A stretch of DNA of 64,000 bases from contig CM075992.1 of NCBI GenBank assembly GCA_038087875.1, positions 4,714,001 through 4,778,000 of the forward strand, written 5' to 3'. This DNA is from Malacoraja senta. Its lineage: Eukaryota. The notes beneath the pieces are model-generated. The model searched no databases, was not told the origin of the DNA, and saw nothing but the letters and a program-made list of their open reading frames with translations. The translations under genes were made by a program, and so were the position numbers. The first letter of the stretch is position 1. The number at the start of each line of letters is the position of its first letter. Below are positions 184 through 60,800 of this stretch, piece after piece.

Positions 184-218
<35 letters not shown>

Positions 219-11850: not shown

Positions 11851-13388
11851 TCCTCAGGGTGTGTCTTTGCATCTCTCGCATTGGTCCAACCATCTGTCAT
11901 GTCATAAGTGATAGGGGCAGAATTAGGTCATTCGGCCCATCAAGTCTACTCCGCCATTCAATCGTCTGTCTGCGAATCCCCCTCCCTCCCTCACCTCTAT
12001 CTACCCATCACTTGCCAGGCTTTGTCTCGCGCCCTCTTCCGTTCAAGTCCCCCCTTCACTACCACGATCAGTCCAAAGAAAGATCTCAAGCCGAAACGAT
12101 GCAGTGTATTTCATGTCGCAGCGTAGAAGGGGGTGCAACGTATAATAAGATAGAAATCAAGAGGAGCTGAATTGCAGAAGCTGTCTGAAGGAGGTGTGTA
12201 GGTGTGTTAATCACAGCTGATCTGTCAGGACGACTGCACAACGATGCAGATGAATGAGAATATGGGAGAAAGGAGGAGTGCTGGAACTCTGAGTGATGGA
12301 GTATATATTTGTGTCATAGAATCATACAACTTCAAAACAGGCTATTCGGCCCACCGCATGTCTGCCAACAATCAGTCACTCAACCACGGATCCAATTTTC
12401 TTCTGAATTTGGGTTTCGACCCCAAACGTTGCCTATTTCCTTCTCTCCATAGATGTTGCCTCACCCGCTGAGTTTCTCCAGCATTTTTTTCTATCTCCCA
12501 TTTTCTTCTCCCTACATGACATCGACTTCCACCAGATTGTACTATTCATCTGTGCACCAGGGAATATTTACGGTGCAATGACCAACCAGTTTGCATGTGC
12601 TTCGGACGTTGGAGTTAACAGGAATGTCACCAATCAGATCACATTACCGCACCTCACACTCAACACCACATTTCTGGAATTTGTCTGCATCAGAACTGAC
12701 CAACTTTGTTATAGATCACGATCTACGATACCAGAGCCCTGTTACTTGAAAAACATGGTTTATTTGTTTGTATCATTCCCCTCCAACAGGCACCATTAAC
12801 CGGGCAGCTTTAACAAGGTTGGCCTCGGCATATCTCAAGCGTTCCCTTTATATCTAGGCCTGGATATAGTGGATGTTTCCACTTTTGGGAGAGTCTATGA
12901 CCAGGGGCCATTGCCTCGGAATGAAAGGACGCGGTGAATCTGTGGAATTCATGGCCACGGGCGGCCGAAATTTCGTTCAGACCGAAAGGTCTGAATGACA
13001 AATAAAGGAATCTCTAATCTCTAATCTCTGTAGAGGCCAAGTCACTTTATACTTTTAAGATTGTGAAATTCTTGATTAGTAAGGATATCAGGAGTTATGG
13101 GGCGTGGGCAGGAGACTGGGGGTTGAGAGGGAGAGCTTGAGAGGGAGAGATAGATCATCCATGATTGAATGGCGGAGTAGACGATGGGCCGAAGAGCCTC
13201 ATTCTACTCCGAGAACGTATGGACTTTTAGATACACCCGCATCTCCTACAACTCCTCTACAACTTTAAATGAACTCTCCCGTTCGTGACGGGGCATCTTC
13301 GACCTTAAAGCGAAATAGAGGGCCATTGGCCCTGTGAAATGGGAATTACCTCTGTATCTCGGTGGAAAACGTGGACATTTAGGCTGAT

Positions 13389-13442: not shown

Positions 13443-13486
13443 GGTGATGGCGGAGTTGTGTTGATATATCGGTGTTGGGCAGCACA

Positions 13487-16256
13487 ATGTATTTGTTTGA
13501 AGGTCAGAGTTTGGGGCTGCTGGTTGCACTAATTGGAGTAGTTTGTTGCTCTGATGTTTGGCAACAGTTCAGAGGGCAGCGCTTTCCATGGAGGAAAGTG
13601 AAACCCAAGGATGAATCGGTTTACAGTTCCCAGTTCCAAGCGCTTGAGGTGCAAAGCGTTTCCCCCTTACGGTCTGTGACGGTGGAGTGTGGCGAAGAGA
13701 ACTTGTTGGTTAAGGTCCACTTGGATTTATTTGCAACTGGGCATTTGGTTCAAGCTGCGGATTTAACGCTGGGAACAGCAAATTGCCGGCCAACAGGGGT
13801 TTACCAGCGGAACTCCACTGCTGTCTTCGACTACGCGCTGCATGAGTGTGGTACCAAATTACAGGTGATGATTCTTTGCACTATTATTGAATATTTGTTT
13901 AAACAATTTTGATTTAACATTTGGTGTGGGGAAATTGTGTTTTAAATCCGTCTGGCTAATTTTATTGAAGATAAAATACAAAATACGTGTTAGAACGGAG
14001 ACGAGGAAACACATTTTCTCACAGAGTGGCGAGTCTGTGGAATTCTCTGCCTCGGAGGGCGGTGGAGGCAGGTTCTCTGGATACTTTCAAGAGAGCTGAA
14101 TAGGTCTCTTAAAGATAGCGGAGTCGGGGGATATGGGGATAAGGCAGGAACGGGGTACTGATTGGGGATGATCAGCCCTGATCACATTGAATGGCGGTGT
14201 GGGCTCGAAGGGCCGAATGGCCTACTCCTGCACCTGTTGTGTATTGTCACCCCCGATAGCACGACGTCTTATTCGCTTTATTTACCTTTCTAAACGAGTC
14301 TACCGGTGGATTCTATTTGAACAAGCCAACTAAGAAAGCTAAAAACCATTGCTTCCAATAATGTTGAACGGGGCTTGAACTGATTAAACCATGTTCTCCT
14401 GTATAACTCTTGTAACCCTATTGAAATGTATCTTCACACTAAGCTGTTCAGTTAATATCAATTGATCTGGCTTGGTGCAGTGGTGTCAAAAAGGTACATT
14501 AACGTATTGAAATGTACACCAGGTCTTACAATAATCGCCCGTATAACAAGGTATTCTAAAAATCTCCCAGATCAGTCTGACAGTGCGCTTTACTTTGTCA
14601 CCTCGGTCGAATATTGACCCATCTATAGTCCATATCTTTCTATACCACCTGCGATCCACTCTCCTGTAACAACCAACCATTCCATCGAAGAGTACTTCCC
14701 TCTCGCCCAACTGATGATGTTCGACGCATTGAGCTCCCTTCGCCAAATTGCTACATCTTCAATACGATGGCTTGCTCTGAAACCAACTTTGCTTATCTTT
14801 CAGATGGTCGGAGATGATCTTATTTACACAACCCATCTGAACTACACCCTCAAGGCTCGTGGAGCGATCACTGTGCGAACTCATGGAGCAATCGTTCCTA
14901 TCCTGTGCCGTTATTTCAGGTAATCAGTGTGTGATTTATATTGTTCTTCTATTCATGACGCGTTCTCTAATCTGCTTGATGCCATTGACTGTACTTCCCA
15001 GTAAAGGCAACGTGAGCAGTGACCCGATCCAACCCACCTGGATCCAGTTCAGCTCCACCAAGTCAGGAGAGGGGCATCTGTCATTCTCCCTGTGTCTAAT
15101 GAATGGTTAGTGAGGAGCGAGGGGACTGACTCGAGGGTTAATACACCGCCTCTAACCCATGTTGTCTTGTCCTGTAGATGACTGGCTTACAGAGCGCGCC
15201 TCAGCCACCTACTACCTCGGTGAGCTCATCCACATCGAAGCTTCAGTTTCAATGACTAATCACATGCCCCTGAAGCTCTACATTGACCGCTGTGTGGCCA
15301 CGTTGAGCCCGGACAAGGACTCCACCCCGAGCTACAACATCATACACTACAATGGGTAAGGAGCCTACTGATTCTCCCAACTATTTTAGATTCACAACTT
15401 GTTCAGTATTTTTAACGCCATTCTTTGTCCAGTTGCCTCGTGGACAGTGCGGCCGAAGATTCCTTTTCTACCTTCGCGTTGCCAGGAGATGAACGTGAGC
15501 CGGACAAGCTCCGGTTTGACCTGGACGCCTTCCGTTTCTTTGGGGATGAGCGTTCCTTGGTAAGTGGAAGCGAAATCATTGGTTCTGCAAGTAGAACGGG
15601 GTCGCAAATATGACTAATTGTTGAAATTAGTATGTTTTGTTATTATTGGTTCGGTGTATGACTGCAGGCATCACAATTTCGTTCAGACCGAAAGGTCTGA
15701 ATGACAATAAAGGAAACTTGATTCTTGACTTGATTCTTGAAATGTCCCTCAGATTTTCATCACCTGCCTCTTGAAGGTTGCTGCAGCTGAGCGGAGTGAT
15801 TCGATGAACAAAGCTTGTACTTTCCAGAAAGAGCAGAAGATGTAAATAGCTCCTCATCCGCCCCCCTCTCTGTCTGTGGCCAATGTGTTTGGTTCACCAA
15901 CAGATTCTCCCTCCTTTAGTTGGACTCCATTAGAAGAATCGAGCGCTGATGTCTGTGCATGTTGTCGTGTGGGTGACTGCGCCGCCACAAGGGGCGCTCT
16001 GTTTACTTCTGGAGGACGGAGGGACATTGTGCCCGAGGCTGGTAAGTCATTGAACCCCGAGGCGGGCGGTTGCTCCGTCTGCTCTGTAACTGGAAACTTT
16101 GGTCTTGCAGAGGATGATGTTGGAGTGAAGCGGGAGGGCAAGGCGTCGCTGGGACCCCTGATCATTCTGGACCCTGATGTGAGCAGCCTGGCAACAGAGT
16201 CGCTAAATGAGACTGAGGGGCGCGCACTGAGGGAATCGAGCGTTGGTTATCTGTGA
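13487..16256 (+). CDS. zp3: Zona pellucida protein ZP3/ZPC-like, copy A (419 aa if exon 8 reads through to TGA; no intact TM exon)
   Basis: Exons 13487-13864, 14804-14919, 15002-15105, 15178-15355, 15433-15559, 15753-15841, 15920-16041 and 16111-16256 are all GT-AG and phase-consistent. The protein has a signal peptide, ZP-N (VTVECGE...LHECG...CRY), ZP-C ([34 protein letters not shown]), the ZP3 cluster CACCRVGDC and the EHP SLGPLII. Confidence 0.9.
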
Positions 16257-18085: not shown

Positions 18086-18130
18086 ACTAGTGATTAGGCT
18101 ACCGAAGGCACGTTTGTGTTGCTTGGCGTC

Positions 18131-21100
18131 ATGGTGGTCTTTGAGATGAAGGGTTTGAGTTTATTGCTGTTACTGTTATTTGGGGCAGTTGGTGCTGCGG
18201 ATGTTTGGCGTCAATTTGAAGGGCAGTCATTTCCATGGAAGAAGGTGAAATCTACAGTTGAATCTGTTTTGCCATCGTCTGCGGTGCCGAGTGTGTCTCC
18301 TTTGCGTACCGTGGTGGCGCAGTGTGGGGAGCGCAATCTGCTGGTCTTGGTGCGAATGGATTTATTTGGAACGAAGCACCTGGTTAAAGTTGCGGACTTA
18401 ACACTGGGGCCGGGAGGGTGTCGGCCAACGGGCGACTACCCTCAAAACCAGACTGCTTTGTTTAATTATGGACTCCACGAGTGCGGGACTAAACTGCAGG
18501 TAATACGGTTCTTTACACTGGTGTAGTGTTTCTGGTTCTTTGTGCTATGTTACTCTCGAGATACAACGCGGCCCACAGAGTCCACGCCAATTGCTCTCTC
18601 CCCAGCCACTAACCCACATAAACGAGGGACAATTTTACCACTTATCCAAGCCATTTGACCCACAAACCTGAAAGTCTTTGGAGTGTGGGCGGAACGCACG
18701 CGGTCACGGGGAGAACTTGCAAATTCCCTGCAGACGGATCCCGTAGTTGGGATCGAACCCGTGACTCTGGCTCCGTAAGGCACCATCGTGCCGCCCATTA
18801 ATGTTGAGACACATGCCCGATTTTTTTGAGGTTGTGTTGAACGGCTCACGTGTATTCACTGGTCTCTGTATACGTTTTGTCCCGTAAGTCGCTCTTCCCT
18901 TTATAAAGTACTACCTTGCCAGTCGGGAAGTTAGTTTTAGTTTTTGGTCTTGGAGATACAGCGTGGAAACGGCCCTTCAGCCCACGACGACGATCCCTTC
19001 TATCCCCTCGCACGAAGGACAATTTACAGAAGCCTATTAATTGGAGGAAATGCACCTCATATTACGCTTGGGCAGTCTACATCCTGGGGGCTTGAACATT
19101 GAATTCTCCCAATTCTGCTAGCCCTTGCTGTCCCCTCCCCTTCATCAGCCCTCTGGTTGTCTCCTCCCCTCCCCTTGCCCTCGGGCTCCTCCTCCCCCTT
19201 TTTTCCTTTCTTCTCCCCACCCCCTATCAGTCTGAAGGAGGGTTTCGGCCCGAAACGTTGCCTATTTCCTTCGCTCCATAGATGCTGCTGCAGCACCCGC
19301 TGAGTTTCTCCAGCATTTTTGTGTACCTCCTATTAATCTACAAACGTGCACGCCTTTGAAGGTAGACAAAAATGCTGGAGAAACTCAGCGAGTGCAGCAG
19401 CATCTATGGAGCGAAGGAGATAGGCAACGTTTCGGGCCGAAACCCTTCTTCAGACTTTGAAGTGCGGGAGGAAAGCGGAGAAAACCCACATGGTCACAGG
19501 CTGAACGCGCGAACTCCTTTCAGACAGCACCTGTAGTCCGGATGGAACCCGGGCCTCTGGCACTGTAAGGCAACAACTCCATCGTTGCGCCACTGTGCCG
19601 CCCTTTATAAAAAATAAAAATAAATAAAAAAAAAAAATCTTCGAAAACCAGTCGAATTACAGAAATAAATGACATTATCACGTTAGTTTGGTGGCGTCGT
19701 GAATAGCGCCAAGGAAGCATGCTGGCGCTCGTTCTCCCTACGGGTAAAAAATGTGCGTGGATGTGGTTATTTTAACGATATATTGGAAATACCAATCACT
19801 TCTAAACTGCAGAAGAATCTAAATTTTCTTCCTAACTCCAGGCGATTGGCTTTTTAGCCCCTAAGCGAACTTTAAAATGGCAAAATGTATTCAATTTTCA
19901 GCCTGGGTCAATTCATTGACTTAAGGTCATAAGGAATAGCAGTAGAATTGGGCCATTCGGCCCATCAAGTCTTCTCCGCCCTTCAATCATGGCTGATCTA
20001 TCTCTCCCTCATAACCCCATTCTCCTGCATTCTCCCCATAACCCCTGACACATGCATATACTTGGTGGCCAACATCGTCGTTTAGCTTCCAACAATCGTA
20101 ATTTGAATATTTCAACCTCCATTAAGAAATAACGTTATAATTGAACGCTGTGTTTGATCATCATTGGCACCTAACCTGGTCTCTTTCAGATGGTTGGAGA
20201 TTTTCTCGTCTACGCCACCTACCTGAACTACACCCCCAAGTCTCACGGAGCGACCATTGTACGAACCAACGGAGCAGTTGTCCCCATTCAGTGCCATTAT
20301 TTCAGGTAGTTAGTGCGTGCTCTTGTGTCCGTGTATACCTGAATAAATGTGTGTGTGACAATGTTTCCGATGCCACCATCTTTCCTTGCAGGAAAGGCAA
20401 CGTGAGCAGTGATCCGATCAAACCCACCTGGATCCCGTTTAGCTCCACCAAGTCTGGAGAGGGGCATCTGTCATTCCTCCTGCGTCTAATGAATGGTATG
20501 TGATGAAAGAGGGGACTAATTCAAGGTGTCCTATATTTTCTGAGGTGCAACTTTCATCATTGTTCAACTTCTGTCAAGGAGAAACTATACTTCACCCTCG
20601 TTAGACCTCATTTGGACTACGCAGTTGCAGCATGGGACTCATACACAAATAAAAACATTTCTTCCATCGAACGTGTCCAAAGACAGGCAGCTCGATTTGT
20701 TACTAACACCTATGAGAGAAGCGAGTGTTACCAAACTTCTGAGTTCTCTGGGGTGGAACCCTCTCCAAGACAGACGTGAAGCTCACCGTTTGACCTGTTT
20801 TTACAAAATGTTAAATAGGCAGCTCGACATAGATTACAAGACCTACACCAAACCCAAACCAATTAGGAGCAGACCAGAGCATTCAATCCAATTTGTGATT
20901 CCAGCTACCAAGACAGATGTGTACACCAATTCGTTCTTCCCCCGCACAATTAAAGCTTGGAATAATCTCCACCCTACCATAGTTACCCAACCAGATGCAA
21001 CTAAATTTAAGGTAGCTCTTTCTTCCCAAAAAAACCTTCTGGCTTAAGTCCTCTCTCCACCATCTCCAGTTTAAATTCCATTTGGAATATTTTGGAGGAC

Positions 21101-28464: not shown

Positions 28465-28848
28465 TGGGGTTAGAAACATAGAGAATAGGTGCAGGAATAG
28501 GCTATTCTGCCCTCTGTGCCAGCACCGCCATTCAATATGATCATGGCTGATCATTCAAAATCAGTACCCCGTTCCTGCTTTCTCCCCATAGCCCTTGATT
28601 CTGTTAGCCCTGAGAGCTATATCTAACTCTCTGTTGAAAACATCCAGGGAATTGGCCTCCTCTGCCTTCTGTGGCAGAGAATTCCACAGATTCACAACTC
28701 TCTGGGTGAAAAGGTTTTTCCTCATCTCAGTCCTAAATGGTCGACCCCTTATTCTTACACTGTGACGTCTGGTTCTGGACTCGCCCAACCTGGGGAACAT
28801 TTTTCCTGCATCTAGCCTATCCAATCCCTTAAGAATTTTATATGTTTG
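28465..28848 (-). mobile_element. CR1/HER1 LINE 3' fragment
   Basis: TYKILKGLDRLDAGKMFP...RVVNLWNSLPQ...GYGEKAGTGY. Confidence 0.9.
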
Positions 28849-28902
28849 CGTAGAAGCAACACCTTGGTCAGCAAGGTGGGCCAAAGAGCTTGTTCCCCTG
28901 CT

Positions 28903-29042
28903 TCTTCTTCTTGCGTATGGCGTGCACAGCCTAAAGTTGTCAGACAACTTGTTCTATTTGATCTTATTTGATTGTGCACGCCAGTTCGATTGCATTCGTC
29001 GAAACAGGGCGGACCAGGGTGAAGGTTGCAATCTCCCACCCC
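28903..29042 (-). mobile_element. Ribozyme-headed short retroposon, copy 1 (HDV-like 5' domain, 3' stem-loop, (AAG)n tail)
   Basis: Starts GGGGTGGGAGATTGCAACCTTCACCCTGGTCCGCCCTGTTTCGACGAATGCAATC. TSD TTCCCCTGCT is at 28893-28902 and 29043-29052. Confidence 0.85.
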
Positions 29043-29558
29043 TTCCCCTGCTCTTTGACTCTATGAGTCTAATTTCTGGAGAGTCCCGTGACAATTCAGA
29101 AATCGCATTTCCGCTCAGTCTAAACACGCATTCGTGTTCTGAACCAAAGTGCACATTACCACGGAATCACATTTCACGCCCAATGTTTTATTTTAATCAT
29201 CTGAAGTTGTGATTCCACACCCCCTCCATAAAAGAAGCTGATTCCTGCTTCTCACTATCTACTGTACTATGCTTTGGAAACCATCCAGCCATGGTATGAT
29301 AAGAGAAACATTTGGTTCTGGTGGAAATACACAAGGAAACCAGCCAACCATTGTGCATTTGCAGCAATAGAGTTGCTGTCTTACAGCGCCAGAGAACCGG
29401 GTTTGATCCTGTACGGAGTTTGTACGTTCTCCCCGTGACCTGCGTGGGTTTTCTCCGAGAGCTCCGGTTTCCTCCCACATTCCAAAGACATACAGGGTTG
29501 TAGGTTAATTGGCTTTGGTAAAAATTGTAAATCGTCCCTAGTGTGTAGGATAGTGTTA

Positions 29559-33546: not shown

Positions 33547-33851
33547 TATTTACTTACTGCCTATTATGCCTCCTGGCATGTCGGGCAGCAACGGAGATCC
33601 TCCACTCAGTGGTGTTGATTCCTTCAGTTGCTGTTTCCGTAACATATGTGTTTTACGAGACAGGGTTGTTAGCCCTGTGCTCAACTTCCAACCTGGAGGA
33701 CCAGTGGATCGCTCTTCGTCTCGCCTCTACCCTTCGACCTGTCCAGCATGGGAGACCCTAACAGGAGACGAATCTCCCGCTGGCATAGCTCTAGGGGTCA
33801 CTGAGACACACAAGCTCCCCGACCACGACAAGGTTGCAATCCAACGGGGAG
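33547..33851 (-). mobile_element. RTE-derived short non-autonomous element with 5' HDV-like fold
   Basis: RTE/BovB-like 5' UTR motifs (CCTTGTCGTGG...GAGCTATGCC...GATCCACTGG) and a (TAAG/TAAA) tail. The 12-bp TSD CAAGAAAATGAT is at 33535-33546 and 33852-33863. Confidence 0.8.
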
Positions 33852-40299: not shown

Positions 40300-40812
40300 A
40301 TATATAATATTAAAACTCTGTGTGTGTGTGTGTGTGTCTGCTTGACTTGTGCCAGCCAGCCCCTTTGATACCGCGGCTACGCCAACACCGCACGCAGAAA
40401 TGCCGAGATTTTTTCCATTTCGGTAGAGATTTCATTTTTCTTTACGATTAGCCACTCCTGATTACATTTCGTCGTATTTATGTACACATGTTTAAATAAA
40501 ATCCATCACCTCCCCCCCCCCCCCCCCACTCACTCATTTTGTCTCCTCCTGCTGGTCAGCCACCATAACGGCTGCTGTCGACCGCCTCTGCTCCGAAAAC
40601 GAGGCCATCTTTTTTTCGCTAGCGATTTTCACCACGATGTATGAATCACGTTCGGACTCTAAATCCCCGGGTTCTGTAGCACGTTCAGTGTCCAGGGGTC
40701 TGAAGCACGTTCTGAATTTTCACCCCGGGGTCTGAAACATGTTCTGGATCTCACACCCCGGGGTCTTAAGCACGTTCGGTGTCCAGACCCAACGGGTCTG
40801 CACTTGGTCTAG
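39952..40812 (+). mobile_element. Non-autonomous Helitron with expanded 5' (TCTA)n repeat
   Basis: Begins TC and ends CTAG, with hairpin CAGACCC-AAC-GGGTCTG at 40784-40800 just upstream. It is inserted between A and T of a CR1 (gaccca|tatccctc) with no TSD. Confidence 0.85.
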
Positions 40813-41204
40813 TATCCCTCTAAATCTGTCCTATCCATGTAAATGTCTAAATGTTTCTTAAACGTTGTGATAGTCCCAGCCTCAACTACCTCCTCTGGCA
40901 GCTCGTTCCAGACACCCACCACCCTTTGTGTGAAAAAGTTACCCCTTAGATTCCTATTAAATCTTTCCCCCCGCACCTTAAACTTATGCCCTCTGGTTCT
41001 TGATTGGCCCACTCTGGGCAAAAGACTCTGTGAGTCTACGCGATCTATTCCTCTCATGATTTTATACACCTCTATAAGATCACTCCTCATTCTCCTGTGC
41101 TCCAAGGAATAGAATCTTAACCTGCCCAACCCCCTATTGCTCAGACCCTTGAATCCTGGCAACATCCTCGTAAATCTTCTCTGCACCATTTCCAGTGGCA
41201 ACAT
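40813..41204 (-). mobile_element. CR1/HER1 LINE 3' fragment
   Basis: VQRRFTRMLPG...DLIEVYKIMRGIDRVD...RVVGVWNELP. Confidence 0.9.
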
Positions 41205-42186: not shown

Positions 42187-43671
42187 CTGCTGTATCTTTA
42201 AACAAAACTAAAAAGGTGCACTGCATATGTCACCCAGTGAGCCAGATGCCGTATCCATTGGATAGCAGATTATTGAATTGTTACTGTTGGTGGATGTTAT
42301 TCAATGATTGTTTCCTCTCCCTGGTCCATGTGAGCTCATTTAGAGATAGATTGAGGATGGAGCCTGGAAGTAATTTGGTTTAATAAAAAAGAAACTGCAG
42401 ATGCTGGTATACACCAACGAGAGACTCAAAATGCTGGAGTAACTCAGCAGATCAGGCAGCAAATCTGGAGAAAATTGAGAGGTGATGTTTCGGGTTGGGT
42501 CTGAAGACAGAGGACAAAGGAAATTTATTGTCACTTCCACCAGTTGGTGTAGTGAAATTTGAGTTACCATTGTAGCACACAAATAAAATAAACTCAACAT
42601 TATAGAATTTAACATTCAACATAAAAATCATCCCCCCACAGAGGGATCAACATTTCCCACTGTGAGGGAAGGCAGCAATGTTCAGTCCACTTCCTCCATG
42701 TTCACCCTTGGTCGGGGCCTATTGAGGCCTCCACAGTCGCTGAGGTCCAGATCCCAAAAAATCACCTTTTCATTTTCTGCAAAGATGCTGCCTGACCCGC
42801 TGAGTTCCTCCAGCATTTTGTGTCTATCTTTCGTATGCTTAGTTGGTTTAGTTTAGTAGATGTGGTTTAGATTAGATTAGCCTAGTTCAGTTTAGTTTAA
42901 TTCAGTTTAGTGATACAGCATGGAAACAGGCTCTGGCCCATCAAGCCCGACCTGACAACTGATCATCCTTTCGTACTAGTTTTCATACACTTTCACTATT
43001 CAACTCACCACACACTCAGGGGAATTTTACTCAGGCCAAACACCCTACAAACCCTCGCGTCTTTGAGATGTGGGAGGAAACTGGAGCAACTGGAGGAAGC
43101 CCACACTTTCACAGGAAGAACGTGCAAACTCCACACACACAGCACCCGAGGTCAGGATCGAACCCGGGTCCCTGGCGCCGTGAGGCAGCAGCTCTACCAG
43201 CTGTGTCACTGTGGTTCACTGCCACTGGAAAGCTTTTGCTAAATGAATCACCGGGAAGACATAGTTCAGATCTTATTTTTAGTCTGGATTCCAATCGAGG
43301 CATTATCGGCAATTCAGCTTCAGGAAAAGAGATCTGTTGACGATGCACCAAACCCTGCCCATTGTTGCTCTGCACTCTGCAGGGGCAATGTGGATAGACT
43401 TGGTGGAGTAGAGTGGCAGGAACCTTATCAGGCTAGACAGCAGAATCTGTCGATACAGTCAGCCTTGCCTGTTGGTGCCTCCATTGTCATCGTGGACTCT
43501 GCTTCCTTCCTGCTGGGATGCTATCCTATTTAAACATAACCTCTGGGCAAGGGGGGTATGGGGGCCTGAGTTAAACTTCCATCACCTATCCAAGTTCTCC
43601 AGAGATGCCAGACACAAAACGCTGGAGTAACTCTGCGGGTCAGGCAGCATCTCTGGAGGGAAGGGATATGT

Positions 43672-43804
43672 CTTCTTGCGTATGGCGTGCACGGCCTAAA
43701 GTTGGAAGACAACTTGTTCTGTTTGATCTTGTGTTTGTGCACGCCAGGTTGATTGCATTCGTCGAAACAGGGTGGACCACGTGAAGGTTGCAATCTCCCA
43801 CCCC
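43672..43804 (-). mobile_element. Ribozyme-headed short retroposon, copy 2
   Basis: Imperfect TSD AAGGGATATGT at 43661-43671 and AAGGAATATGT at 43806-43816. It is inserted in a Penelope-derived repeat. Confidence 0.85.
43751..43804 (-). ncRNA. HDV/CPEB3-like self-cleaving ribozyme (predicted, 54 nt, minimal P4)
   Basis: P1 GGGGUGG/CCACCCU (G1.U wobble), P2 GAUUGCA/UGCAAUC, P3 ACC/GGU, L3 UUCACGU, P1.1 C-G and J4/2 ACGAA carrying the catalytic C. Confidence 0.85.
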
Positions 43805-44040
43805 AAAGGAATATGTGACGAATCGGGTCAAGGCCCTTCTTCAGTGAGAGTCAGAAATGAGAGATGTAGGCGGTGATATAGAGAGATATAGAAGAAATGA
43901 ATGATAGGTATGCAAAGAGTAACAATGATCAAGGAAAGATGGAGCCCACACAATGGTGATCAGAACACTGCAGAGATGCTGCCTGACCTGCTGAGTTACT
44001 CCAGCACTTCAATATGAACAGCAGTGACAGCAAGGCAGGA

Positions 44041-44687
44041 ATAGAAACATAGAAACATAGAAAATAGGTACAGGAGTAGGCCATTCGGCCCTTCGAGCCT
44101 GCACCGCCATTCAATATGATCATGGCTGATCATCCAACTCAGTATCCCGTACCTGCCTTCTCTCCATACCCCCTGATCCCTTTAGCTACAAGGGCCACAT
44201 CTAACTCCCTCTTAAATATAGCCAATGAACTGGCCTCAACTACCCTCTGTGGCAGAGAATTCCACAGATTCACCACTCTCTGTGTGTGGAACAAAAATGT
44301 TTTTCTCATCTCGGTCCTAAAAGACTTCCCCCTTATCCTTAAACTGTGACCCCTAGTTCTGGACTTCCCCAACATCGGGAATAATCTTCCTGCATCTAGC
44401 CTGTCCAACCCCTTAAGAATTTTGTAAGTTTCTATAAGATCCCCCCTCAATCTTCTAAATTCTAACGAGTACAAGACGAGTCTATCCAGTCTTTCTTCAT
44501 ATGAAAGTCCTGCCATCCCAGGAATCAGTCTGGTGAACCTTCTCTGTACTCCCTCTATGGCAAGAATGTCTTTCCTCAGATTAGGAGACCAAAACTGTAC
44601 GCAATACTCCAGGTGTGGTCTCACCAAGACCCTGTACAACTGCAGTAGAACCTCCCTGCTCCTATACTCAAATCCTTTTGCTATGAA
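44041..44687 (-). mobile_element. CR1/HER1 LINE 3' fragment
   Basis: LYRVLVRPHLEYCVQFWSP...GDLIETYKILKG...RVVNLWNSLP, with a (TTCTATGT)n tail. Confidence 0.95.
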
Positions 44688-44798
44688 ATCTTTCTTGAAT
44701 TGTTCCCTTCTACAGGATGTGGCCATTGCTAATACAACAGCCACATCCTCAATAGCTTTGGAACCAAGTGGTTGTTTGGCTATTGCAGGGCGCAGTTT

Positions 44799-44935
44799 GG
44801 GGTGGAAGATTGCAACCTTCACCTGGTCCGCCCTGTTTCGACGAATGCAATCAACTCGACGTGCACAAACGGAAGATCAAATAGAACAAGTTGTCCAACA
44901 ACTTTAGGCTGTGCACGCCACACGAAAGAAGAAGA
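44799..44935 (+). mobile_element. Ribozyme-headed short retroposon, copy 3 (ribozyme 44799-44852)
   Basis: GGGGTGG-AA-GATTGCA-ACC-TTCACCT-GGT-CCGCCCT-GTTTCGAC-GAA-TGCAATC. TSD core AGGGCGCAG is at 44787-44795 and 44936-44944. Confidence 0.85.
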
Positions 44936-45206
44936 AGGGCGCAGCTAACCATGCAGCGGTGGGTCTGGAACTACGGGTGGGAATTGAGCGCGGAGGGGGA
45001 GGGGTTGGGAGATCAAGAGTCAAGAGTCAAAAGTCAAAAATCAAGACACAAGTCAAGAGTGTTTTATAGTCTTATGGCTCGTAGCGGAACAATGATTTCT
45101 TAAAGTGCAGGTAGATGGGACTAGGGGAGAAAAAGTGTTTGGCATGGATTAGAAGGGCCGAGAAGGCCTGTTTCCATGCTGTAATTGTTATATGGTTATA
45201 TGGTTA

Positions 45207-49497: not shown

Positions 49498-50022
49498 TTA
49501 CACGAAAATGCTGGAGAAACTCAGCGGGTGCAGCAGCATCTATGGAGCGAAGGAAATAGGTAACGTTTCGGGCCGAAACCCTTCCTCAGACTGATAGGGG
49601 GTGGGGAGAAGAAAGGAAAAAAGGAAAAAGGCAGAGGAGGATCCCAAGGGCTGGGGGAGGGGACGAGACAACCAGATGGCTGATGAAGGGGAGGGGACAG
49701 CAAGGGCTAGCAGAATTGGGAGAATTCAATGTTCAAGCCCCCAGGATGTAGACTGCCCAAGCGGAATATGAGGTGCATTTCCTCCAATTTACGGTGTTGC
49801 TCGCTGTGGCCATGGAGGAGACCCAGGACAGAGAGGTCAGATACGGAATGGGAGGGGGAGTTGAAGTGCTGAGCCACCGGGAGGTCAGGTTGGTTATTGC
49901 GGAGGTGTTCGGCGAAACGATCGCCAAGCCTCTGCTTGGTCTCACCGATGTAGATCAGCTGGCATCTAGAGCAGCGGATGCAATAGATGAGGTTGGAGGA
50001 GATGCAGGTGAACCTCTGTCGA
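49498..50022 (-). mobile_element. Penelope-like element 3' end: GIY-YIG endonuclease fragment plus terminal repeat with hammerhead core
   Basis: FTCISSNLIYCIRCSRCQLIYIGETKQRLGDRFAEH...HFN...LHPGGLN, followed by CTGAGGA-A-GGGTTTCGGCCC-GAAACGTT at 49561-49592. Confidence 0.9.
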
Positions 50023-50198
50023 CTTGAGGATGTGCCTTCAGCTGCCAGCATGTAAGCTCTGGAATTCCAACCCTCTCTGCACACAACATAATCATTAAGG
50101 TCCTTCTCCTTGGAACCTCACCTTTGATCATTCTCACATATCTCTTTTGAGGCGAGCCAAAGATTTTTTGTTGGTGCTGTTTCCTGTTGCAGCTACTT

Positions 50199-52510: not shown

Positions 52511-54474
52511 TGGCAAACACTCACATTCAAGCTGAGACTGTTCCAGTCAAGTGTGGTCAAGTGGTTCTCCCTGTTTCCACACAAGGATAATGTGTTTTTG
52601 CATGGAATCTTTAAAAAATACTACTGCTTCAGGATGTGGCTACCATTGCAACACTGGCATTTACTACCCATTCCTGCTCGCCCGTGAGAAAAAGATGGTG
52701 AGCCACTTCACCGACCAACACTATTGACAAAATAAAGTTGTGGGAGTTGGAGAGGGAGATTTTGGGATTCTGATCCAGCTAAGGCAATAGAAAAAGGGTC
52801 TTGACCCGAATCGTCACCCATTCCTTCTTTCCAGAGATGCTGTCTGTCCCGCTGAGTTACTCCAGCATTTTGTGTCTATTTTGGGTGTAAACCAGCATCT
52901 GCAGTTCCTTCCTACACATACGATGCGATACGATAGAACTCTATTTATCCCAGGAGGGAAATTGATCTGCCAACAGTCATAAAACACACAAGATACAAGA
53001 AATATGAAATTAAAGTGACCAGGGCAAATATTGGGGAGAGGGGGGGGGGGGGAGAGTCAGTCCACCCCACGACCGAAGGGGGAGGAGTCATACAGTTTGA
53101 TTGCCACAGGGAAGAAGGATATGATCAGGCTTGATCTGAGCTCTCTGGTCTCTGTTGCAGGCTCTGACCTTCTGAGCCAAAGGTGAGTGCAATGACCAGT
53201 GAACCACCATAGGCACTCATGGGTGGGAGACATGACCAGGGAAGATAAATTGGTTGGGAATTTTCAGAATTCCACACGGCTAATTTTAGGACATCAATAA
53301 GCCACTCAGGACTTTGGCAAACTTATTACAGCTCGTGTATGCCTGCTGTCTGAACCAGCAAGGAGCTAGACAGTAAATAGCTGTAAGGTATGAGCGCAAG
53401 TCTATTAATGGGCCAGTGTGTTCGGCTCCAGTAAACACAACAGAAACACTCACTGAGTCCGCATATGGTTTTTACAATCAGCACTAGTCTGTGCTGGTAT
53501 CAGTAGTTTAGCAGACGTCCTGTCTGGGAGGCTGGGGTGGTAACAGCAGATAGTAAACACAGCCAAACTCTGTCAGACCTCAGACACGAGCTGCAGATGC
53601 AAAAAAAAATCCACACACACAAAGTGCTGGAGCAATTCAGCAGGTCAGGCAGCATTTTGGAGAACATGGATAGGCAACGTTGCAGGTCGGGACCCTTCTT
53701 CAGACCTCCTTGCCCTGGAAGTATGCTTGACTGATTCTACACTTACCTGCTCTGAAAGTAGCAGGTGTATATACACATGTATATATATACACCTATATAC
53801 ACACACGCATGCACACCTACACTCACACACATACACACACACATGTGCACGCACACAGGTGCATACACACACAAGTGCATGCACACGCACGCACACACAC
53901 GCACGTTCATACGCACGCATACTCAGGATTGTACGAAAGAAGTCAAAAGAGCCAAGGTTGTTTAATTGTCATATTTACTGACAATGGAACAATGAGATTC
54001 TTGCTTGCAGCTGCATAATGCCCTGTCCCACTTAGGCGATTTTTTAGGCAACTACAGGCAACTAGGCTGTCGCCACATGGCCGTCGGGGTGTCCCCTGTA
54101 TGGTCGTGAGTCGTCTCCTCAGTCGCCCAAAGAATCGTAGCGTTTTTCTGGTCGCCACTGGATTTTGAAATGTTCAAAACTTTTCAGCGACAGTCGGCGA
54201 CAGTTGGCTTGATGCCAATGAGCGTAGCTTGACTTCTCCTGACGTAGCTGCTGTTGTAAGTTGTTGCCAGGATGACGTAGGTTGGCGCTGTTGCTGACTG
54301 GTTTTTTTTAGGCCTGTTTCTGCACTGTATCTCTAAAGGGTAGTCTAAAAACTACAGATATATAGGCCTCATAACACTATGAATGTAAAAACTGAAGAAA
54401 GCTGTGAATGTAAAGAAAGCTATGCACTGTTTCTGCACTTCCTATTTCTTTTCAGCGAATTAAACCATATAACA

Positions 54475-54629
54475 GGGGTGGGAGATTGCAACCTTCACGG
54501 GGTCTGCCCTGTTTCGACGAATGCAATCAACCTGCCGGTGCACAATCAAGTAAGATCAAATAGAACAAGTTGTCCTTCAACTTTAGGCTGTGCACGCCAT
54601 ACGCAAGAAGAAGAAGAAGAAGAAGAAAG
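54475..54629 (+). mobile_element. Ribozyme-headed short retroposon, copy 4 (ribozyme 54475-54528)
   Basis: GGGGTGG-GA-GATTGCA-ACC-TTCACGG-GGT-CTGCCCT-GTTTCGAC-GAA-TGCAATC with a long (AAG)n tail. TSD CATATAACA is at 54466-54474 and 54630-54638. Confidence 0.85.
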
Positions 54630-54644
54630 CATATAACAGATGGA

Positions 54645-57800: not shown

Positions 57801-60800
57801 GGATAGGGGCACAGGATTAGAGGGATATGAGCCAAATGGGACTAATGTCGATGCATCTTGGGCAGAATGGGCTAGTTGGGCCGAAGGGCCTGTTTCCCTG
57901 CTGTTTGATTCAATGACTCTTCTACCTCGAGGCTAAAAAGTTGCAGTGAGAAAAAGAGGAACAATTTGCAAATGTTGAGAGTAAAGCCAGCAGACCGACC
58001 AAAGGGTGCAAACACCATTAGTGTGCAGAAGAATTGTAAAACAAGAGCAGAACATTGACGGTTAAATAACTAACTCATTCTGTTTCAGAATCCGTTGGTG
58101 GGTCGACAGTCTAACATTAAACCCATATAAAAATTGTCCTCATTGGTCGACCGTTTACTCATTCTAGAAGTGGTGAAAACTCGGGTAGGTCTGCTTTGTG
58201 GCCTGCCTTACCCGTAGAATCCTTGTAGAATGCTTGTAGATCCTTTGTCAGCGGGTCTCCAACTCAACTCTGAAATTTCGCAACAAACTTTGTGGCCTGT
58301 GCCCAGGCACGGACATCTAGAGTTGTTGCTACCCGACTATTTGCACAGGGACCTTGTTACTCATAGGAAAACCACACTTAACAGCAAACTTTCTTTCAGA
58401 AAGAGAGAGCTGAACACTTTGAGCCGCAACCTTGCTTCTTTCAGTCAACGATCACTCACTATCACTTGCCAAACTTTGACACGCCCCACCTCTCTTCCAA
58501 TTATCCGCCCTCCTACTCCAATCTTCACCCAGAGAGTTGTGAATCTGTGGAATTCTCTGCCACAGAAGGCAGTGGAGGCCAATTCACTGGATGTTTTCAA
58601 GAAAGAGTTCGATTTAGCTCTTAGGGCTAACGGAATCAAGGGATGTGGGGAGAAAGCAGGAACGGGTACTGATTTTAGATGATCAGCCAAGATCATATTG
58701 AATTGCGGTGCTGGCTCGAAGGGCTGAATGGCCTACTCCTGCACCTATTTTTTCTGTTTCTCCTTTTTTAATTAGTCTGAAGAAGGGTCCCGAATTGAAA
58801 CATCACCTATCCATGTTCTCCAGAGATGCTTCCTAACCTGCGGAGTTACTCCAGCACTTTGTGTCTTTCTTATAAACAACATCTAAAGTTTCTTGTGCCT
58901 ACGAATCAGTCACTTTCATCCCCTTAGACTCTTTGTTCAGCTGATGATGTTGGTTATGTCTTTGTGTAGAAAGGAACTGCAGATGCTGGTTTTAAACCGA
59001 AGATCAACACAAAATGCTGGAGTAACTCAGCAGGCTAACAATGGTCTGTTTCCTTTAACATCGTTACTTTTTTGCATATCTTTCATTCATTGTTCTATGA
59101 GTTAGATAGAGCTCTAGGGGCTAGTGGAGTCAAGGGATATGGGGAGAAGGCAGGCACGGGTTGTTGATAGGGGACGATCCACCATGATCACAATGAATGG
59201 TGGTGCAGGCTCGAAGGGCCGAATGGCCTCCTCCTGCACCTATTTTCTATGTTTCTATGTATCTCTCTAATTCATCGTCTATATCTCCCGTTTTGCTTTC
59301 CCGTGACTTTCATTCAGAAGAAGGGTCTCGACCCGAAACCTCACCCATTCCTTCTCTCCAGAGATGCTGCCTGCCCAGCCGAGTTACTCCAGCTCTTTCT
59401 ATCTATCTTTGGTTCTGTCTTTGTCTCATCGAGTGCTTCTGATGCCTTGACTCTGGGGTCAGTAATTCAATGTTGCGCGGGAGTTCCATCAATTGAGCTG
59501 CAGTGGACGAGGCCAAGTTGACACTACCATTGTAGCACTGGGGGTGTACTGAAATATGAAGTGCATAGATAGGGTGGATGGACCAAGTGCGTTCTCCCCC
59601 CCCCCGGGTCGGAGAACGAAGAAGTAGAATGCAAAGGTTCATGGCAAGAGGGGAAAGATTTAATGGGAAGCTGAGGGGGTGAACTTTTCACAGGGTGGTG
59701 GGTATATGGAACAAACTGCCAGAGGTAGTAGTAGAGGCAGGTGTTAGATGTAGTTTTAGTGATACAGCATGGAAACAGGCCCTTCAGCCCACCAAGTCTA
59801 GGCCGACCATTCATCACCTGCACACTAATGCCATGTTATCCCACTTTCCCGTCCACTCCCTACAATTAGGGCCAATTTACAGAGGCAAATTAACCTACAA
59901 ACCTGCACGTCTTTGGAATGTGGAGGAAACCGGAGCACCCGGAGAAAACCCACACGGTCACGGGGAGAACGTACAAACTCCATACAGACAGCACCCGCAA
60001 TCGGGATCAAACCCGGGTCCCTGGCGCTGTAAGGTACTATTGCACTATTAAAACACAAAAGACAATAGACAATAGACAATAGGTGCCCGATTAGGCCATT
60101 CGGCCCTTCGAGCCAGCACCGCCATTCAATGTGATCAGGGCTGATCATCCCCAATCAGTACCCCTTTCCTGCCTTCTCCCCATATCCCCTGACTCCGCTA
60201 TTTTTAAGAACCCTATCTAGCTCTCTCTTGAAAGCATCCAGGGGACCGGCCTCCACTGCCCTCTGAGGCAGAGAATTCCACAGACTCAACACATTATTTG
60301 ACCTGTGTGTGAAGGAACTGCAGATGCTGGTTTAAAAGCTCAGTCACTCAGCGGGTAAGTCTGTTAGGGTGAAGAAGGGTCTCGACCGGAAACTTCTGCT
60401 ATTCCTCTTCTCCAGAGATGCTGTCTGGCGCGCTGAGTTACTCCAGTTTTTTGTGTATCTTACATTATTTGACCTGTTCGGATAGGAGTAAACACAAAGG
60501 TTTTCAATGTGCCTCGACATACATGATGAGAATTGACCCAAACCTAAAAACCTAAACCTAGTGCCAAGAATTCAAGCAGAGAATCCCCTTTTCCCCACCA
60601 CTTCTCATTTGGCTTCCTCATCTACAGTCAAGCCCATTGTTGACTCATACAGAAGGAGTTGACCTTTCCAGGGAACTACTGTACATGTGATGAACACTAG
60701 GTGAATTGGCAACCCTTCTCTATAAAGATAAAGCAAAGGGGGTTCTTTCCCTCAGAGCAAGCAAGATTGATATCAACTATTGAAAACTCTTTCATTGGGC

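What the first reader, a model, noticed from the sequence alone, without database searches (positions are those of the whole stretch)
43672..43804. A tiny retroposon family whose 5' end is a complete HDV/CPEB3-like self-cleaving ribozyme (4 copies)
Seen: four elements of about 135-155 bp (29042-28903 minus, 43804-43672 minus, 44799-44935 plus, 54475-54629 plus) share one 5' end. They have no tRNA head or pol III A/B boxes, end in (AAG)n and carry TSDs of 9-12 bp. The first 54 nt fold as the nested double pseudoknot of HDV ribozymes: P1 GGGGUGG/CCACCCU with G1.U, J1/2 GA, P2 GAUUGCA/UGCAAUC, P3 ACC/GGU, L3 UUCACGU, a single C-G P1.1, P4 shrunk to a UUCG loop and J4/2 ACGAA. Copy variants in P1 (CCGCCCU, CUGCCCU) keep pairing through G.U. 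The 5' TSD ends at G1, the predicted cleavage site. Established: UUCACGU is the L3 loop of the mammalian CPEB3 ribozyme, and R2 and RTE retrotransposons use HDV-like ribozymes to cut their 5' ends out of host transcripts. Inference: this is a promoter-less ribozyme SINE that frees itself from read-through RNA and is copied by a LINE partner, probably RTE-type given the tail. Four copies in 64 kb suggest a high genomic copy number. I do not know of a description in cartilaginous fish.
Basis: partly seen in the sequence, partly recalled or inferred. Interest (0 to 1): 0.92.

Follow-up and report, generated by a model that had tools for sequence, protein, structure and literature searches.

The report
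Ribozyme-headed mini retroposon family
A short mobile DNA element present in thousands of copies begins with a tiny self-cutting RNA motif of the hepatitis-delta/CPEB3 type, which most likely trims its own front end out of host transcripts before it is copied back into the genome.

Summary
Four ~135-bp elements sit at the stated coordinates, with 10-13 bp target-site duplications (TSDs), (AAG)n tails and one shared 5' end. The family (F1) has at least 3,472 copies in the 1.94-Gb genome.

The first 54 nt fit every defining position of an HDV/CPEB3-type double pseudoknot with almost no P4. Within F1 there is no covariation. Searching the genome with Rfam models uncovered relatives: a 67-nt head on a second ~205-bp retroposon (F2), a 53-nt P4-less head on a third (F4), and a 73-nt head on a ~3.1-kb single-ORF endonuclease/reverse-transcriptase LINE with an (AAG)n tail (F3).

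Across these families 11 of 18 P1/P2/P3 pairs change on both sides, and 96.7% of cells stay paired. In 41 of 53 F1 copies with a detectable TSD, the TSD abuts G1.

39 genomic sites pass Rfam's curated threshold for the "mammalian" CPEB3 ribozyme; F1 itself does not.

Not shown: cleavage, RNA ends, the specific LINE partner of F1, or the host taxon.

Verdict: a real ribozyme-headed non-autonomous retroposon, a new variant of a known kind. It also offers a possible retroelement origin for the CPEB3 ribozyme.

The parts
28903..29042 (-). F1 copy 1, whole element including the (AAG)n tail; older subfamily (G32)
   Evidence: 90% identical to copy 2 over nt 1-133
28988..29042 (-). Ribozyme head of copy 1 (55 nt). 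L3 has one extra nt and G25 is C, so this copy is probably inactive
   Evidence: fails the descriptor
29043..29052 (-). 5' target-site duplication of copy 1 (10 nt), ending at G1
28893..28902 (-). 3' target-site duplication of copy 1 (10 nt)
43672..43804 (-). F1 copy 2, whole element; youngest subfamily (A32), 96-98% identical to the 39 other scored genomic copies
43751..43804 (-). Ribozyme head of copy 2 (54 nt). P1 is 43804-43798 with 43775-43769; P2 is 43795-43789 with 43757-43751; P3 is 43788-43786 with 43778-43776; L3 is 43785-43779; P1.1 is C at 43783 with G at 43768; the catalytic C is at 43761
   Evidence: (RF02682 aligned end to end on exactly this span, 15.9 bits)
43806..43816 (-). 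5' target-site duplication of copy 2 (11 nt, 1 mismatch to its partner; one extra T at 43805 before G1)
43661..43671 (-). 3' target-site duplication of copy 2
44799..44935 (+). F1 copy 3, whole element; inserted beside a 5'-truncated LINE ORF2 remnant (44139-44822, minus strand)
44799..44852 (+). Ribozyme head of copy 3 (54 nt). G25 is C and G8 is A, so this copy is probably inactive
   Evidence: fails the descriptor
44787..44797 (+). 5' target-site duplication of copy 3 (11 nt, 1 mismatch; one extra T before G1)
44936..44946 (+). 3' target-site duplication of copy 3
54475..54629 (+). F1 copy 4, whole element with the longest (AAG)n tail
54475..54528 (+). Ribozyme head of copy 4 (54 nt); passes the descriptor (two G.U pairs in P1)
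54462..54474 (+). 5' target-site duplication of copy 4 (13 nt with 1 mismatch; the last 9 are exact), ending at G1
54626..54638 (+). 3' target-site duplication of copy 4

Best explanation
The four elements belong to a young family (F1) of at least 3,472 ORF-less non-LTR retroposons of about 133 bp. F1 has no polymerase III-type head. Its first 54 nt encode a minimal, nearly P4-less self-cleaving ribozyme of the HDV/CPEB3 type.

Proposed mechanism:
1. A source copy is transcribed as part of a longer host or read-through RNA (inferred).
2. The head folds into the nested double pseudoknot and cuts the phosphodiester just 5' of G1, giving an RNA that starts exactly at G1 (inferred from structure and from where copies begin).
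3. The reverse transcriptase of an (AAG)n-tailed, single-ORF endonuclease/RT LINE of the RTE-like clade abundant in this genome recognises the 3' stem-loop region and the terminal motif plus (AAG)n. It primes on nicked target DNA and copies the RNA to its 5' end (inferred; the specific partner was not identified).
4. This yields full-length inserts flanked by 10-13 bp duplications (shown).

F1 is one of several families in the genome with the same design. They include F2 with a 67-nt head, F4 with a 53-nt P4-less head, and the LINE family F3 with a 73-nt head that passes Rfam's CPEB3 threshold. F1 is therefore best seen as a stripped-down non-autonomous derivative of ribozyme-headed LINEs.
For: Structure:
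- All defining positions are present in the family consensus.
- A strict descriptor hits only F1 copies in 128 kb of window sequence, both strands.
- Rfam RF02682 aligns end to end on exactly 43804-43751.

Covariation:
- F1 against F2: 7 pairs changed on both sides, 98.5% of 274 cells paired, and 0-1 such pairs in slid controls.
- Six families, 12 sequences: 11 of 18 pairs changed on both sides and 96.7% of 212 cells paired, against 38-48% when slid. The covariation score is 0.653 against 0.168 in shuffles, reached by 0 of 500 shuffles.
- Core positions U20, C22, C24, U26, G37, U38, the catalytic C and the two A of J4/2 are invariant in that alignment; G25 is nearly so.

Relatives pass or approach curated models:
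- F2 head: 32.8 bits, E 1.4e-4 on RF02682.
- 39 of the 59 candidate sites that were scored lie over the RF00622 gathering score, the best at 64.2 bits. None of 14 control genomes has a match over the cut-off (confirmed).

5' ends, among 70 distinct F1 copies:
- 54 start at nt 1, 6 at nt 2, 1 at nt 3, 1 at nt 4 (mutated), 1 at nt 6, and 7 are truncated or rearranged.
- A TSD was found for 53 of the 63 near-full-length copies, and in 41 of those 53 it abuts the first base.
- The same 5' boundary is seen in contigs of four public runs from four coded organisms.

Subfamilies: consensus differences in the head fall only at nt 8 (J1/2), nt 32 (U-A against U.G) and nt 45 (second position of J4/2).

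No pol III head: 0 tRNAs in the window, and no small-RNA family at E<=10 on the element apart from two chance-level snoRNA/lncRNA rows.

Partner clade:
- One F3 copy is ~3.14 kb with a 940-aa open frame, RVT_1 at 112.8 bits and Exo_endo_phos_2 at 35.1 bits, an (AAG)4 tail and a TSD.
- There are 6,808 first-look candidates for its C-terminal part.
- 12 of 20 fetched 3' flanks of related LINEs carry (AAG)n.
- The F4 3' part is 89% identical over 63 nt to one such LINE's 3' UTR.

Literature: HDV-like ribozymes at the 5' ends of RTE, R2, L1Tc and of non-autonomous derivatives are established (passages read in PMC6765202, PMC5786205, PMC3414825 abstract, PMC4035085 abstract). P4-less 'minimal' HDV-like ribozymes exist (passages in preprint 10.1101/2023.06.13.544163).
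Against: - No cleavage assay and no RNA-level evidence. The only runs available were contigs, which cannot show RNA starts.
- Within F1, no pair changes on both sides, so all covariation comes from comparison with other families.
- F1 fails Rfam thresholds: 15.9 bits against a gathering score of 44 for RF02682 (E 0.76), and no RF00622 match at E<=10.
- Pseudoknot-free folding of the whole element is no more stable than shuffles, with a z-score of -0.58.
- P4 is reduced to a 6-nt linker, which could lower activity.
- Two of the four window copies have lost G25.
- No LINE with UTRs matching F1 or F2 was found. Two candidate 5' regions of another LINE group showed no ribozyme.
- Assigning the LINEs to the RTE clade rests on architecture only.
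Confidence: 0.8

Rival explanations
1. The head is a relic. It descends from a LINE 5' ribozyme, but in F1 it no longer cleaves because P4 is lost. It is kept for another reason, such as binding the LINE protein, RNA stability or nuclear export, and the 5' end is set by something else.
For: F1 scores far below Rfam thresholds. P4 is reduced to a 6-nt linker. There is no experimental or RNA-end evidence. HDV-like ribozymes of retrotransposons have been proposed to have second roles such as IRES-like activity (passage in PMC6765202).
Against: The catalytic C, G1.U36, U20, G25 and C22-G37 are all kept in the consensus of every F1 subfamily. An independent P4-less relative, F4, also keeps them and passes the CPEB3 gathering score. 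Copies start at G1 to the nucleotide, which a binding role alone does not explain. P4-less HDV-like ribozymes are reported active (passage in 10.1101/2023.06.13.544163, citing Riccitelli 2014, which I did not read).
Confidence: 0.1
2. F1 is an ordinary SINE transcribed by RNA polymerase III from an unrecognised internal promoter that starts at G1. The ribozyme-like fold is incidental.
For: Uniform full-length copies starting with G are also what pol III SINEs show. The linker region contains a 5-nt core resembling a B box (my reading; the B-box consensus is recalled).
Against: ARAGORN and Rfam detect no tRNA, 5S, 7SL or snRNA similarity. No A-box-like motif sits at a workable spacing (my reading). 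A chance fold would not be shared, with 11 compensated pairs, by five other retroelement families, including a protein-coding LINE that pol III would not serve. By my analytic estimate, the strict descriptor is expected about 3e-5 times per window by chance; empirically there were 0 false hits in 128 kb.
Confidence: 0.04
3. The uniform 5' end reflects pol II initiation at G1 in a few master copies with upstream promoters. The ribozyme is dispensable for mobility.
For: Bipartite non-autonomous LINEs are thought to be pol II transcripts (passage in PMC5786205). The 12 of 53 copies that have 1-3 extra bases between TSD and G1 show some 5' junction noise.
Against: The extra bases are not G-biased, as would be expected from copying of a cap (they were t, g, gt, gat, c). 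At least four F1 subfamilies and three other families keep the ribozyme core intact while their bodies diverge or are replaced. That points to selection on the head in the source copies.
Confidence: 0.05

Closest known systems
Mammalian CPEB3 ribozyme (Rfam RF00622)
   Same: The core layout and numbering match: G1.U36, U20 with G25, C22 in P1.1 beside a U-U, and a 4-nt J4/2 starting with the catalytic C (passages in PMC4836649). The L3 sequence is identical (consensus printed). The relatives F3, F4, F5 and F6 in this genome pass its curated threshold with 37-64 bits and share long identical runs with the consensus.
   Different: F1 itself has no RF00622 match at E<=10. It lacks the P4 hairpin and has other P1-distal, P2 and P3 sequences. 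It is multi-copy and sits at the 5' end of a mobile element, not single-copy in a conserved intron. The CPEB3 ribozyme is stated not to have been found outside mammals (passage in PMC8233481).
HDV-like ribozymes at the 5' ends of non-LTR retrotransposons (R2, RTE, Baggins, L1Tc)
   Same: The ribozyme sits at the extreme 5' end, cleavage defines the element's 5' terminus, and promoter-less elements are released from co-transcripts (passages in PMC6765202, PMC5786205, PMC11620745).
   Different: Those described are mostly autonomous elements of insects, nematodes, trypanosomes, birds and tunicates with full-size ribozymes. F1 is a 133-bp ORF-less element with a 54-nt P4-less version. Ruminski et al. 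2011 could not be read, so overlap with their catalogue is unknown.
Ribozyme-bearing non-autonomous derivatives: NARTc/SIDER (Pr77), R2 SIDEs, bipartite non-autonomous RTEs such as RTESINE2 and WALLSI3
   Same: These are short ORF-less elements that keep the parent LINE's 5' end (with its ribozyme where there is one) and its 3' end, and are mobilised in trans (PMC3383444 and PMC3414825 abstracts; passages in PMC5786205).
   Different: For F1 no parent LINE with matching 5' or 3' UTR was found; only the ribozyme type and the terminal (AAG)n motif are shared. F4 does match a LINE 3' UTR. SIDEs are rDNA-specific, whereas F1 is dispersed.
Minimal (P4-less) HDV-like ribozymes from metagenomes, and theta ribozymes of gut phages
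   Same: They have a double pseudoknot of about 50-60 nt in which P4 is replaced by a short linker (passage in 10.1101/2023.06.13.544163).
   Different: Those come from microbiome or phage sequences, next to tRNAs or of unknown context. F1 and F4 are in an animal genome, on retroposons, beside P4-bearing sister families.
Schistosome SM-alpha hammerhead SINE and twister-variant non-LTR elements
   Same: A SINE-like or LINE retroposon that carries a small self-cleaving ribozyme used in processing its RNA (passages in PMC6765202; PMC8501958 abstract).
   Different: The ribozyme class is different (hammerhead or twister). SM-alpha is reported to be pol III-transcribed.

Membership tests
HDV-like self-cleaving ribozymes (structural family) | Nested double pseudoknot: P1 and P2 crossing, P3 inside P1, P1.1 between L3 and J1/4 | tested here: met
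   11 of 18 pairs compensated across six families, 96.7% of cells paired, slid controls 38-48%. Within F1 alone the test is uninformative.
HDV-like self-cleaving ribozymes (structural family) | G1.U wobble closing P1 at the cleavage site | tested here: met
   G.U in 8 of 8 sequences that have a letter at column 1. The four F4/F6 rows lack that position.
HDV-like self-cleaving ribozymes (structural family) | Catalytic cytosine as the first residue of J4/2 | tested here: met
   Invariant C in A4, kept in all F1 subfamily consensus forms. In decayed copies it is lost mainly by CpG transition. The definition is taken from a passage in 10.1101/2023.06.13.544163.
HDV-like self-cleaving ribozymes (structural family) | Site-specific self-cleavage 5' of G1 | not testable with these tools
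   Only indirect evidence: TSDs abut G1 in 41 of 53 copies.
Rfam RF00622 CPEB3_ribozyme | Score at or above the gathering threshold of 35 bits | tested here: not met
   F1 has no match at E<=10 or at gathering level. Relatives F3, F5, F6, L160 and F4 do pass, with 63.8, 59.7, 48.2, 47.7 and 37.2 bits.
Rfam RF02682 HDV-F-prausnitzii | Score at or above the gathering threshold of 44 bits | tested here: not met
   F1 scores 15.9 bits and F2 25.9-36.7 bits. Both align over the full model but fall below the threshold.
Minimal (P4-less) HDV-like ribozymes | P4 hairpin absent, short linker between J1/4 and J4/2 | tested here: met
   In A3 and A4, F1 has a gap across the whole P4 of its relatives, leaving 6 nt (U38-A43) before the catalytic C.
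Classical SINE (pol III head derived from tRNA, 5S or 7SL) | 5' head homologous to a pol III small RNA with internal promoter boxes | tested here: not met
   ARAGORN found 0 genes in the window. Rfam shows no such family at gathering level or at E<=10 on the element.
Bipartite non-autonomous LINE | 5' and 3' parts both derived from the UTRs of an identifiable parent LINE | tested here: inconclusive
   F1 shares the ribozyme type and the terminal motif plus (AAG)n with the LINE clade, but no UTR-level match was found. For sister family F4 the 3' part matches a LINE 3' UTR.
RTE clade of LINEs (for the candidate partner) | About 3.2 kb, single ORF with AP endonuclease and RT, short UTRs, simple-repeat tail; placement in an RT phylogeny | tested here: inconclusive
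   The architecture fits. Homologues are 900-1,000-aa proteins on ~3.0-3.4-kb contigs. No phylogeny with labelled references was possible, and the criteria are partly recalled.

The most novel reading that the evidence does not exclude
The 'mammal-only' CPEB3 ribozyme is a domesticated copy of the 5' ribozyme of an RTE-like LINE of the kind found here. This genome then supplies the missing outgroups: dozens of sites above the CPEB3 gathering score, with long runs identical to the CPEB3 consensus. It also supplies natural P4-deletion variants (F1, F4) that stayed mobile, showing how far the fold can shrink in vivo.
Probability: 0.35. Interest if true: 0.85.

Novelty: new variant of a known kind. 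Interest (0 to 1): 0.72.

Why it matters
1. It adds a vertebrate-type genome in which a whole set of retroelements use one ribozyme design to define their 5' ends. The set comprises a coding LINE and at least three ORF-less derivatives with thousands of copies. The helices carry compensatory changes and P4 is either present or absent, which amounts to a natural structure-function series.

2. A 53-54-nt P4-less HDV-type ribozyme on a mobile element of an animal gives a biological context to 'minimal' HDV-like ribozymes, so far placed in microbiome samples and phages.

3. The CPEB3 ribozyme is said to lack any relative outside mammals. Sequences here pass its curated model at LINE 5' ends. Its origin by retroelement domestication therefore becomes directly testable.

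4. Practically, Rfam-based annotation of such genomes will label LINE 5' ends as 'CPEB3 ribozyme'.

Tried and rejected
- Rfam at gathering level on the window found nothing.
- A possible fifth copy at 33827-33841 is only a chance 13-of-15 match.
- Earlier findings of this scan gave nothing, by place or by sequence.
- RNA evidence: the run search listed 23 runs, all kept as contigs, and none held half of the words. Laying four of them showed that the family and its 5' boundary occur in other coded organisms. It cannot show RNA starts, strand or expression, and the two 'RNA?' runs are only guesses.

Searches for the LINE partner of F1:
- (AAG)n-ended sequences in the window and 30 loci were all F1 copies, apart from 3 unrelated sites.
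- The 30 best RVT_1 loci, from 150 scored of 159,856 candidates, had no similarity to F1 and no (AAG)n.
- 20 places anchored on the 3' motif but lacking a 5' anchor were mutated, truncated or rearranged F1 copies.
- A variant with a replaced middle hairpin proved to be another F1 subfamily.
- 3'-anchored F2 copies were F2 again, except one with a different upstream (L131), which was not followed.
- F3 UTRs and 20 related LINE 3' flanks match F4 but not F1 or F2.
- Two guessed 5' regions of the 52% LINE group showed no ribozyme. One is clearly at an ORF start without a head, so the copy may be truncated.

Other points:
- Within-family covariation is absent and uninformative.
- Host taxon: an Atlas look-up of a LINE ORF remnant gave only 'Eukaryota, commonest Chordata/Echinodermata'.
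- Ruminski et al. 2011 is not held, and Repbase/Dfam cannot be consulted.
Full report
**Observation**

The four elements are real and lie at the stated places. They align over their whole length and are 89-100% identical to copy 2 over nt 1-133. A 17-mer from the head and a 25-mer from the 3' part each occur exactly four times in the window, at these elements, against 0.07 and 0.00 expected. Each copy ends in (AAG)n and is bracketed by a direct repeat of 10-13 bp that stops at or one base before the first G. A weak fifth match at 33827 is not a copy.

**Family size and age**

The window is C16:4714001-4778000 of a 1.94-Gb assembly. Three exact anchor patterns give 3,472, 2,409 and 2,846 genome-wide matches, with 0 for the reversed controls. 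The family, F1 here, therefore has at least about 3,500 copies. The 39 other scored copies are 96-98% identical to copy 2, so the youngest subfamily is recent.

Subfamilies differ mainly in the body:
- A has A32.
- B has G32 and a different middle body.
- C has U at the second J4/2 position.
- D has the C-type head with the middle hairpin replaced.

Contigs of four public runs from four coded organisms also hold the family. They show the same boundary at G1, and head variants above 10% only at nt 32, nt 42 (a CpG) and nt 45.

**5' ends**

I examined 70 distinct tail-bearing copies. The sample is mixed: 29 came from the best-identity hits, which favours full length, and the rest were 3'-anchored.
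- 54 start at nt 1, 6 at nt 2, 1 at nt 3, 1 at nt 4 (mutated) and 1 at nt 6.
- 7 are truncated or rearranged.
- A TSD was detected for 53 of the 63 near-full-length copies. In 41 of those 53 it abuts the first base; in 12 there are 1-3 extra bases, which are not G-biased.
- In the 3'-anchored subfamily-D sample, 9 of 12 independent copies start at G1 and 3 are 5'-truncated.

**The head**

Copy 2 and the consensus carry the following:
- G1.U36, and P1 as nt 1-7 with 30-36.
- A 2-nt J1/2.
- P2 as nt 10-16 with 48-54.
- P3 as nt 17-19 with 27-29.
- A 7-nt L3 with U20, C22 and G25.
- G37 and U38.
- A 5-nt remainder where P4 would be.
- J4/2 as C44-A47.

This layout and numbering match what the CPEB3 NMR paper describes: G1.U36, the U20.G25 wobble, C22 in P1.1 beside a U-U, and a 4-nt J4/2 with the catalytic C (passages in PMC4836649).

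A strict descriptor that I wrote finds only copies 2 and 4 on both strands of the window. Copies 1 and 3 fail because G25 is C. My analytic estimate of a chance hit is about 3e-5 per window.

Rfam gives nothing at gathering level. At E<=10 the only ribozyme row is RF02682, aligned over the full model on exactly 43804-43751. It scores only 15.9 bits against a gathering score of 44, with E 0.76. Pseudoknot-free folding recovers P2 and a long 3' stem-loop domain, but the energy is unremarkable, with z = -0.58. ARAGORN finds no tRNA gene in the window.

**Covariation**

Inside F1 there is none: 0 pairs change on both sides in 36 distinct heads. This is expected, because inserted copies decay neutrally. 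The decay seen is mostly CpG transition, including at the catalytic C.

The informative comparison came from elsewhere in the genome. RF02682 run on the whole genome gave five full-model matches of 25.9-36.7 bits. All belong to a second retroposon family, F2. It is about 205 bp long, has at least 845 first-look candidates and copies 91-95% alike, carries TSDs abutting G1, and has an (AAG)n tail preceded by nearly the same terminal motif as F1. Its 67-nt head has a 5-bp P4 hairpin and scores 32.8 bits (E 1.4e-4) in a local scan.

F1 and F2 heads align colinearly, with a 13-nt gap in F1 at P4. Three P1 pairs and four P2 pairs differ on both sides, and 98.5% of cells pair, against 31-44% in slid controls.

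**CPEB3-type relatives**

RF00622, the 'mammalian CPEB3 ribozyme' model, gave 60 matches at E<=10 on the whole genome. Of these, 39 are above its gathering score of 35 bits, and the best reaches 64.2 bits. Only 59 of about 102,000 candidates were scored. None of 14 control genomes has a match over the cut-off.

Sixteen matches were fetched.
- Seven of the eight best are one family, F3. Its 73-nt ribozyme is followed by about 45 nt and then an ORF that opens with an endonuclease motif.
- One F3 copy, read through as it stands, is about 3.14 kb. It has a 940-aa open frame, RVT_1 at 112.8 bits and Exo_endo_phos_2 at 35.1 bits (PF03372 at 24.1 bits is just under its cut-off). It also has an (AAG)4 tail and an ~11-bp TSD.
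- Six lower hits are F4, a TSD-flanked, (AAG)n-tailed element of roughly 190 bp with a 53-nt P4-less head.
- L150, L161 and L160 are single examples of further types.
- A gathering-level cmscan confirms 63.8, 59.7, 48.2, 47.7 and 37.2 bits for L147, L150, L161, L160 and L158. The printed alignments show long runs identical to the CPEB3 consensus across P2-3'/P3/L3/P3', P1-3'/J1/4 and J4/2/P2-3'.

In a 12-sequence alignment of six families, 11 of 18 pairs change on both sides and 96.7% of 212 cells pair, against 38-48% when slid. The covariation score is 0.653 against 0.168 +/- 0.030, reached by 0 of 500 shuffles. The rows are few and fall into six lineages, so these are about six independent samples rather than twelve. 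The core positions are invariant.

**Candidate partner**

The C-terminal 246 aa of the F3 ORF has 6,808 first-look candidates. Of these, 150 were scored, in identity groups of 91-100%, 85-86% and 50-60%, many with long open frames.

Of 20 fetched 3' flanks from these groups, 12 carry (AAG)n 211-273 nt after the protein match, preceded by short motifs resembling the F1 and F2 termini. F4 nt 119-180 is 89% identical to the 3' UTR of one of them, so F4 is a bona fide derivative.

For F1 and F2 no UTR-level match was found in any sample. Two guessed 5' regions of another LINE group showed no ribozyme.

Database homologues of the F3 protein are 900-1,000-aa endonuclease+RT proteins on ~3.0-3.4-kb contigs from many animals. 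This fits what I recall of RTE elements, but no phylogeny was run.

**What it is**

F1 is an ORF-less non-LTR retroposon whose head is a minimal HDV/CPEB3-type ribozyme.
- Shown: the structure (by comparison between families), the exact 5' boundary, TSDs, tails, copy number, and the presence of ribozyme-headed (AAG)n-tailed LINEs in the same genome.
- Inferred: self-cleavage at G1, dependence on read-through transcription, and mobilisation by that LINE clade.

**Comparison with what is known**

HDV-like ribozymes at the 5' ends of R2, RTE, Baggins and L1Tc are established, and reviews state that some non-autonomous elements use them too (passages in PMC6765202 and PMC11620745). NARTc/SIDER and R2 SIDEs are examples (abstracts of PMC3383444, PMC4035085, PMC3414825). 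Kojima (PMC5786205, passages) links 5' ribozymes to the formation of bipartite non-autonomous LINEs in RTE, Ingi and R2. So the kind is known.

The following appear new, within what I could search:
- A 53-54-nt P4-less form on dispersed, high-copy elements of an animal genome.
- A set of sister families with and without P4.
- Sequence-level CPEB3 relatives at LINE 5' ends.

Searches for 'HDV-like' + ribozyme + shark returned 2 papers, neither of whose titles concerns this topic; I read neither for it. A search combining 'self-cleaving ribozyme' with cartilaginous-fish terms listed 20 papers, none containing the ribozyme term. 'CPEB3 ribozyme' + non-LTR returned 14 papers; of the few I checked by passage, none describes this. 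[quoted passage not shown]

Caveats on novelty:
- Ruminski 2011 and Webb 2009 were not readable here.
- Repbase and Dfam were not available.

**Host**

I could not verify 'cartilaginous fish'. The window holds ZP-N exons and a GIY-YIG remnant of a Penelope-like element. An Atlas look-up gave only Eukaryota, mostly Chordata. A review says Penelope-like elements are absent from mammals (passage in PMC6765202), so a non-mammalian animal is likely. That is an inference.

Noticed in passing
L160 (G000:C10:9303838-9304360), nt 51-120: A single-copy-looking RF00622 hit (47.7 bits) whose P4 and 3' part resemble the mammalian CPEB3 consensus more closely than the LINE-borne copies do, while its P1 5' strand is damaged. 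I did not check whether it lies in a gene or in a retroelement.
   Followed up: no
L170, L171, L173, L175, L176, L177 (3' ends of one LINE group): The last ~40 nt of this LINE group contain an 11-nt stretch identical to nt 8-18 of the F1 head, just before the (AAG)n tail. By my rough estimate the chance expectation is about 0.1, so it may be coincidence or a trace of recombination.
   Followed up: no
L131 (G000:C4263:34154-34324): One copy with the F2 3' half has a different 5' half: no recognisable F2 head and other sequence upstream of the shared part. It could be a chimera or a related longer element.
   Followed up: no
window 43619-43669: This stretch, just downstream of copy 2, belongs to an extremely abundant repeat. 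Summed contig word depth there is about 10-50 times that of F1 in all four runs laid. The same sequence type recurs in the flanks of several F1 loci.
   Followed up: no
window 49707-50084 (-) and 11431-11907 (+): An ORF with a GIY-YIG domain (24.6 bits) and a second ORF that looks to me like a reverse-transcriptase N-terminus (no Pfam hit). Together they suggest Penelope-like element remnants, a class known for hammerhead ribozymes.
   Followed up: partly
window 13472-13912 (+) and 18116-18526 (+): Two similar ORFs, each with a ZP-N domain (34.0 and 28.5 bits). They are probably first exons of tandemly duplicated zona-pellucida-type genes.
   Followed up: partly
window 44139-44822 (-), 28561-28947 (-), 40809-41204 (-), 58230-58682 (+): Four ORFs share a similar C-terminal protein sequence with no Pfam family (two were scanned). 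They look like 3' remnants of one abundant LINE ORF2 family. F1 copy 3 is inserted at the truncated end of one of them.
   Followed up: partly
window 1-900 and 1900-3080: Long impure (GT/CA)n microsatellite tracts produce spurious ORFs of 120-378 aa in several frames.
   Followed up: no
whole genome: Any Rfam-based annotation of this assembly would label dozens of LINE 5' ends as 'CPEB3 ribozyme'. 39 of the 59 candidates that were scored pass the gathering score.
   Followed up: yes
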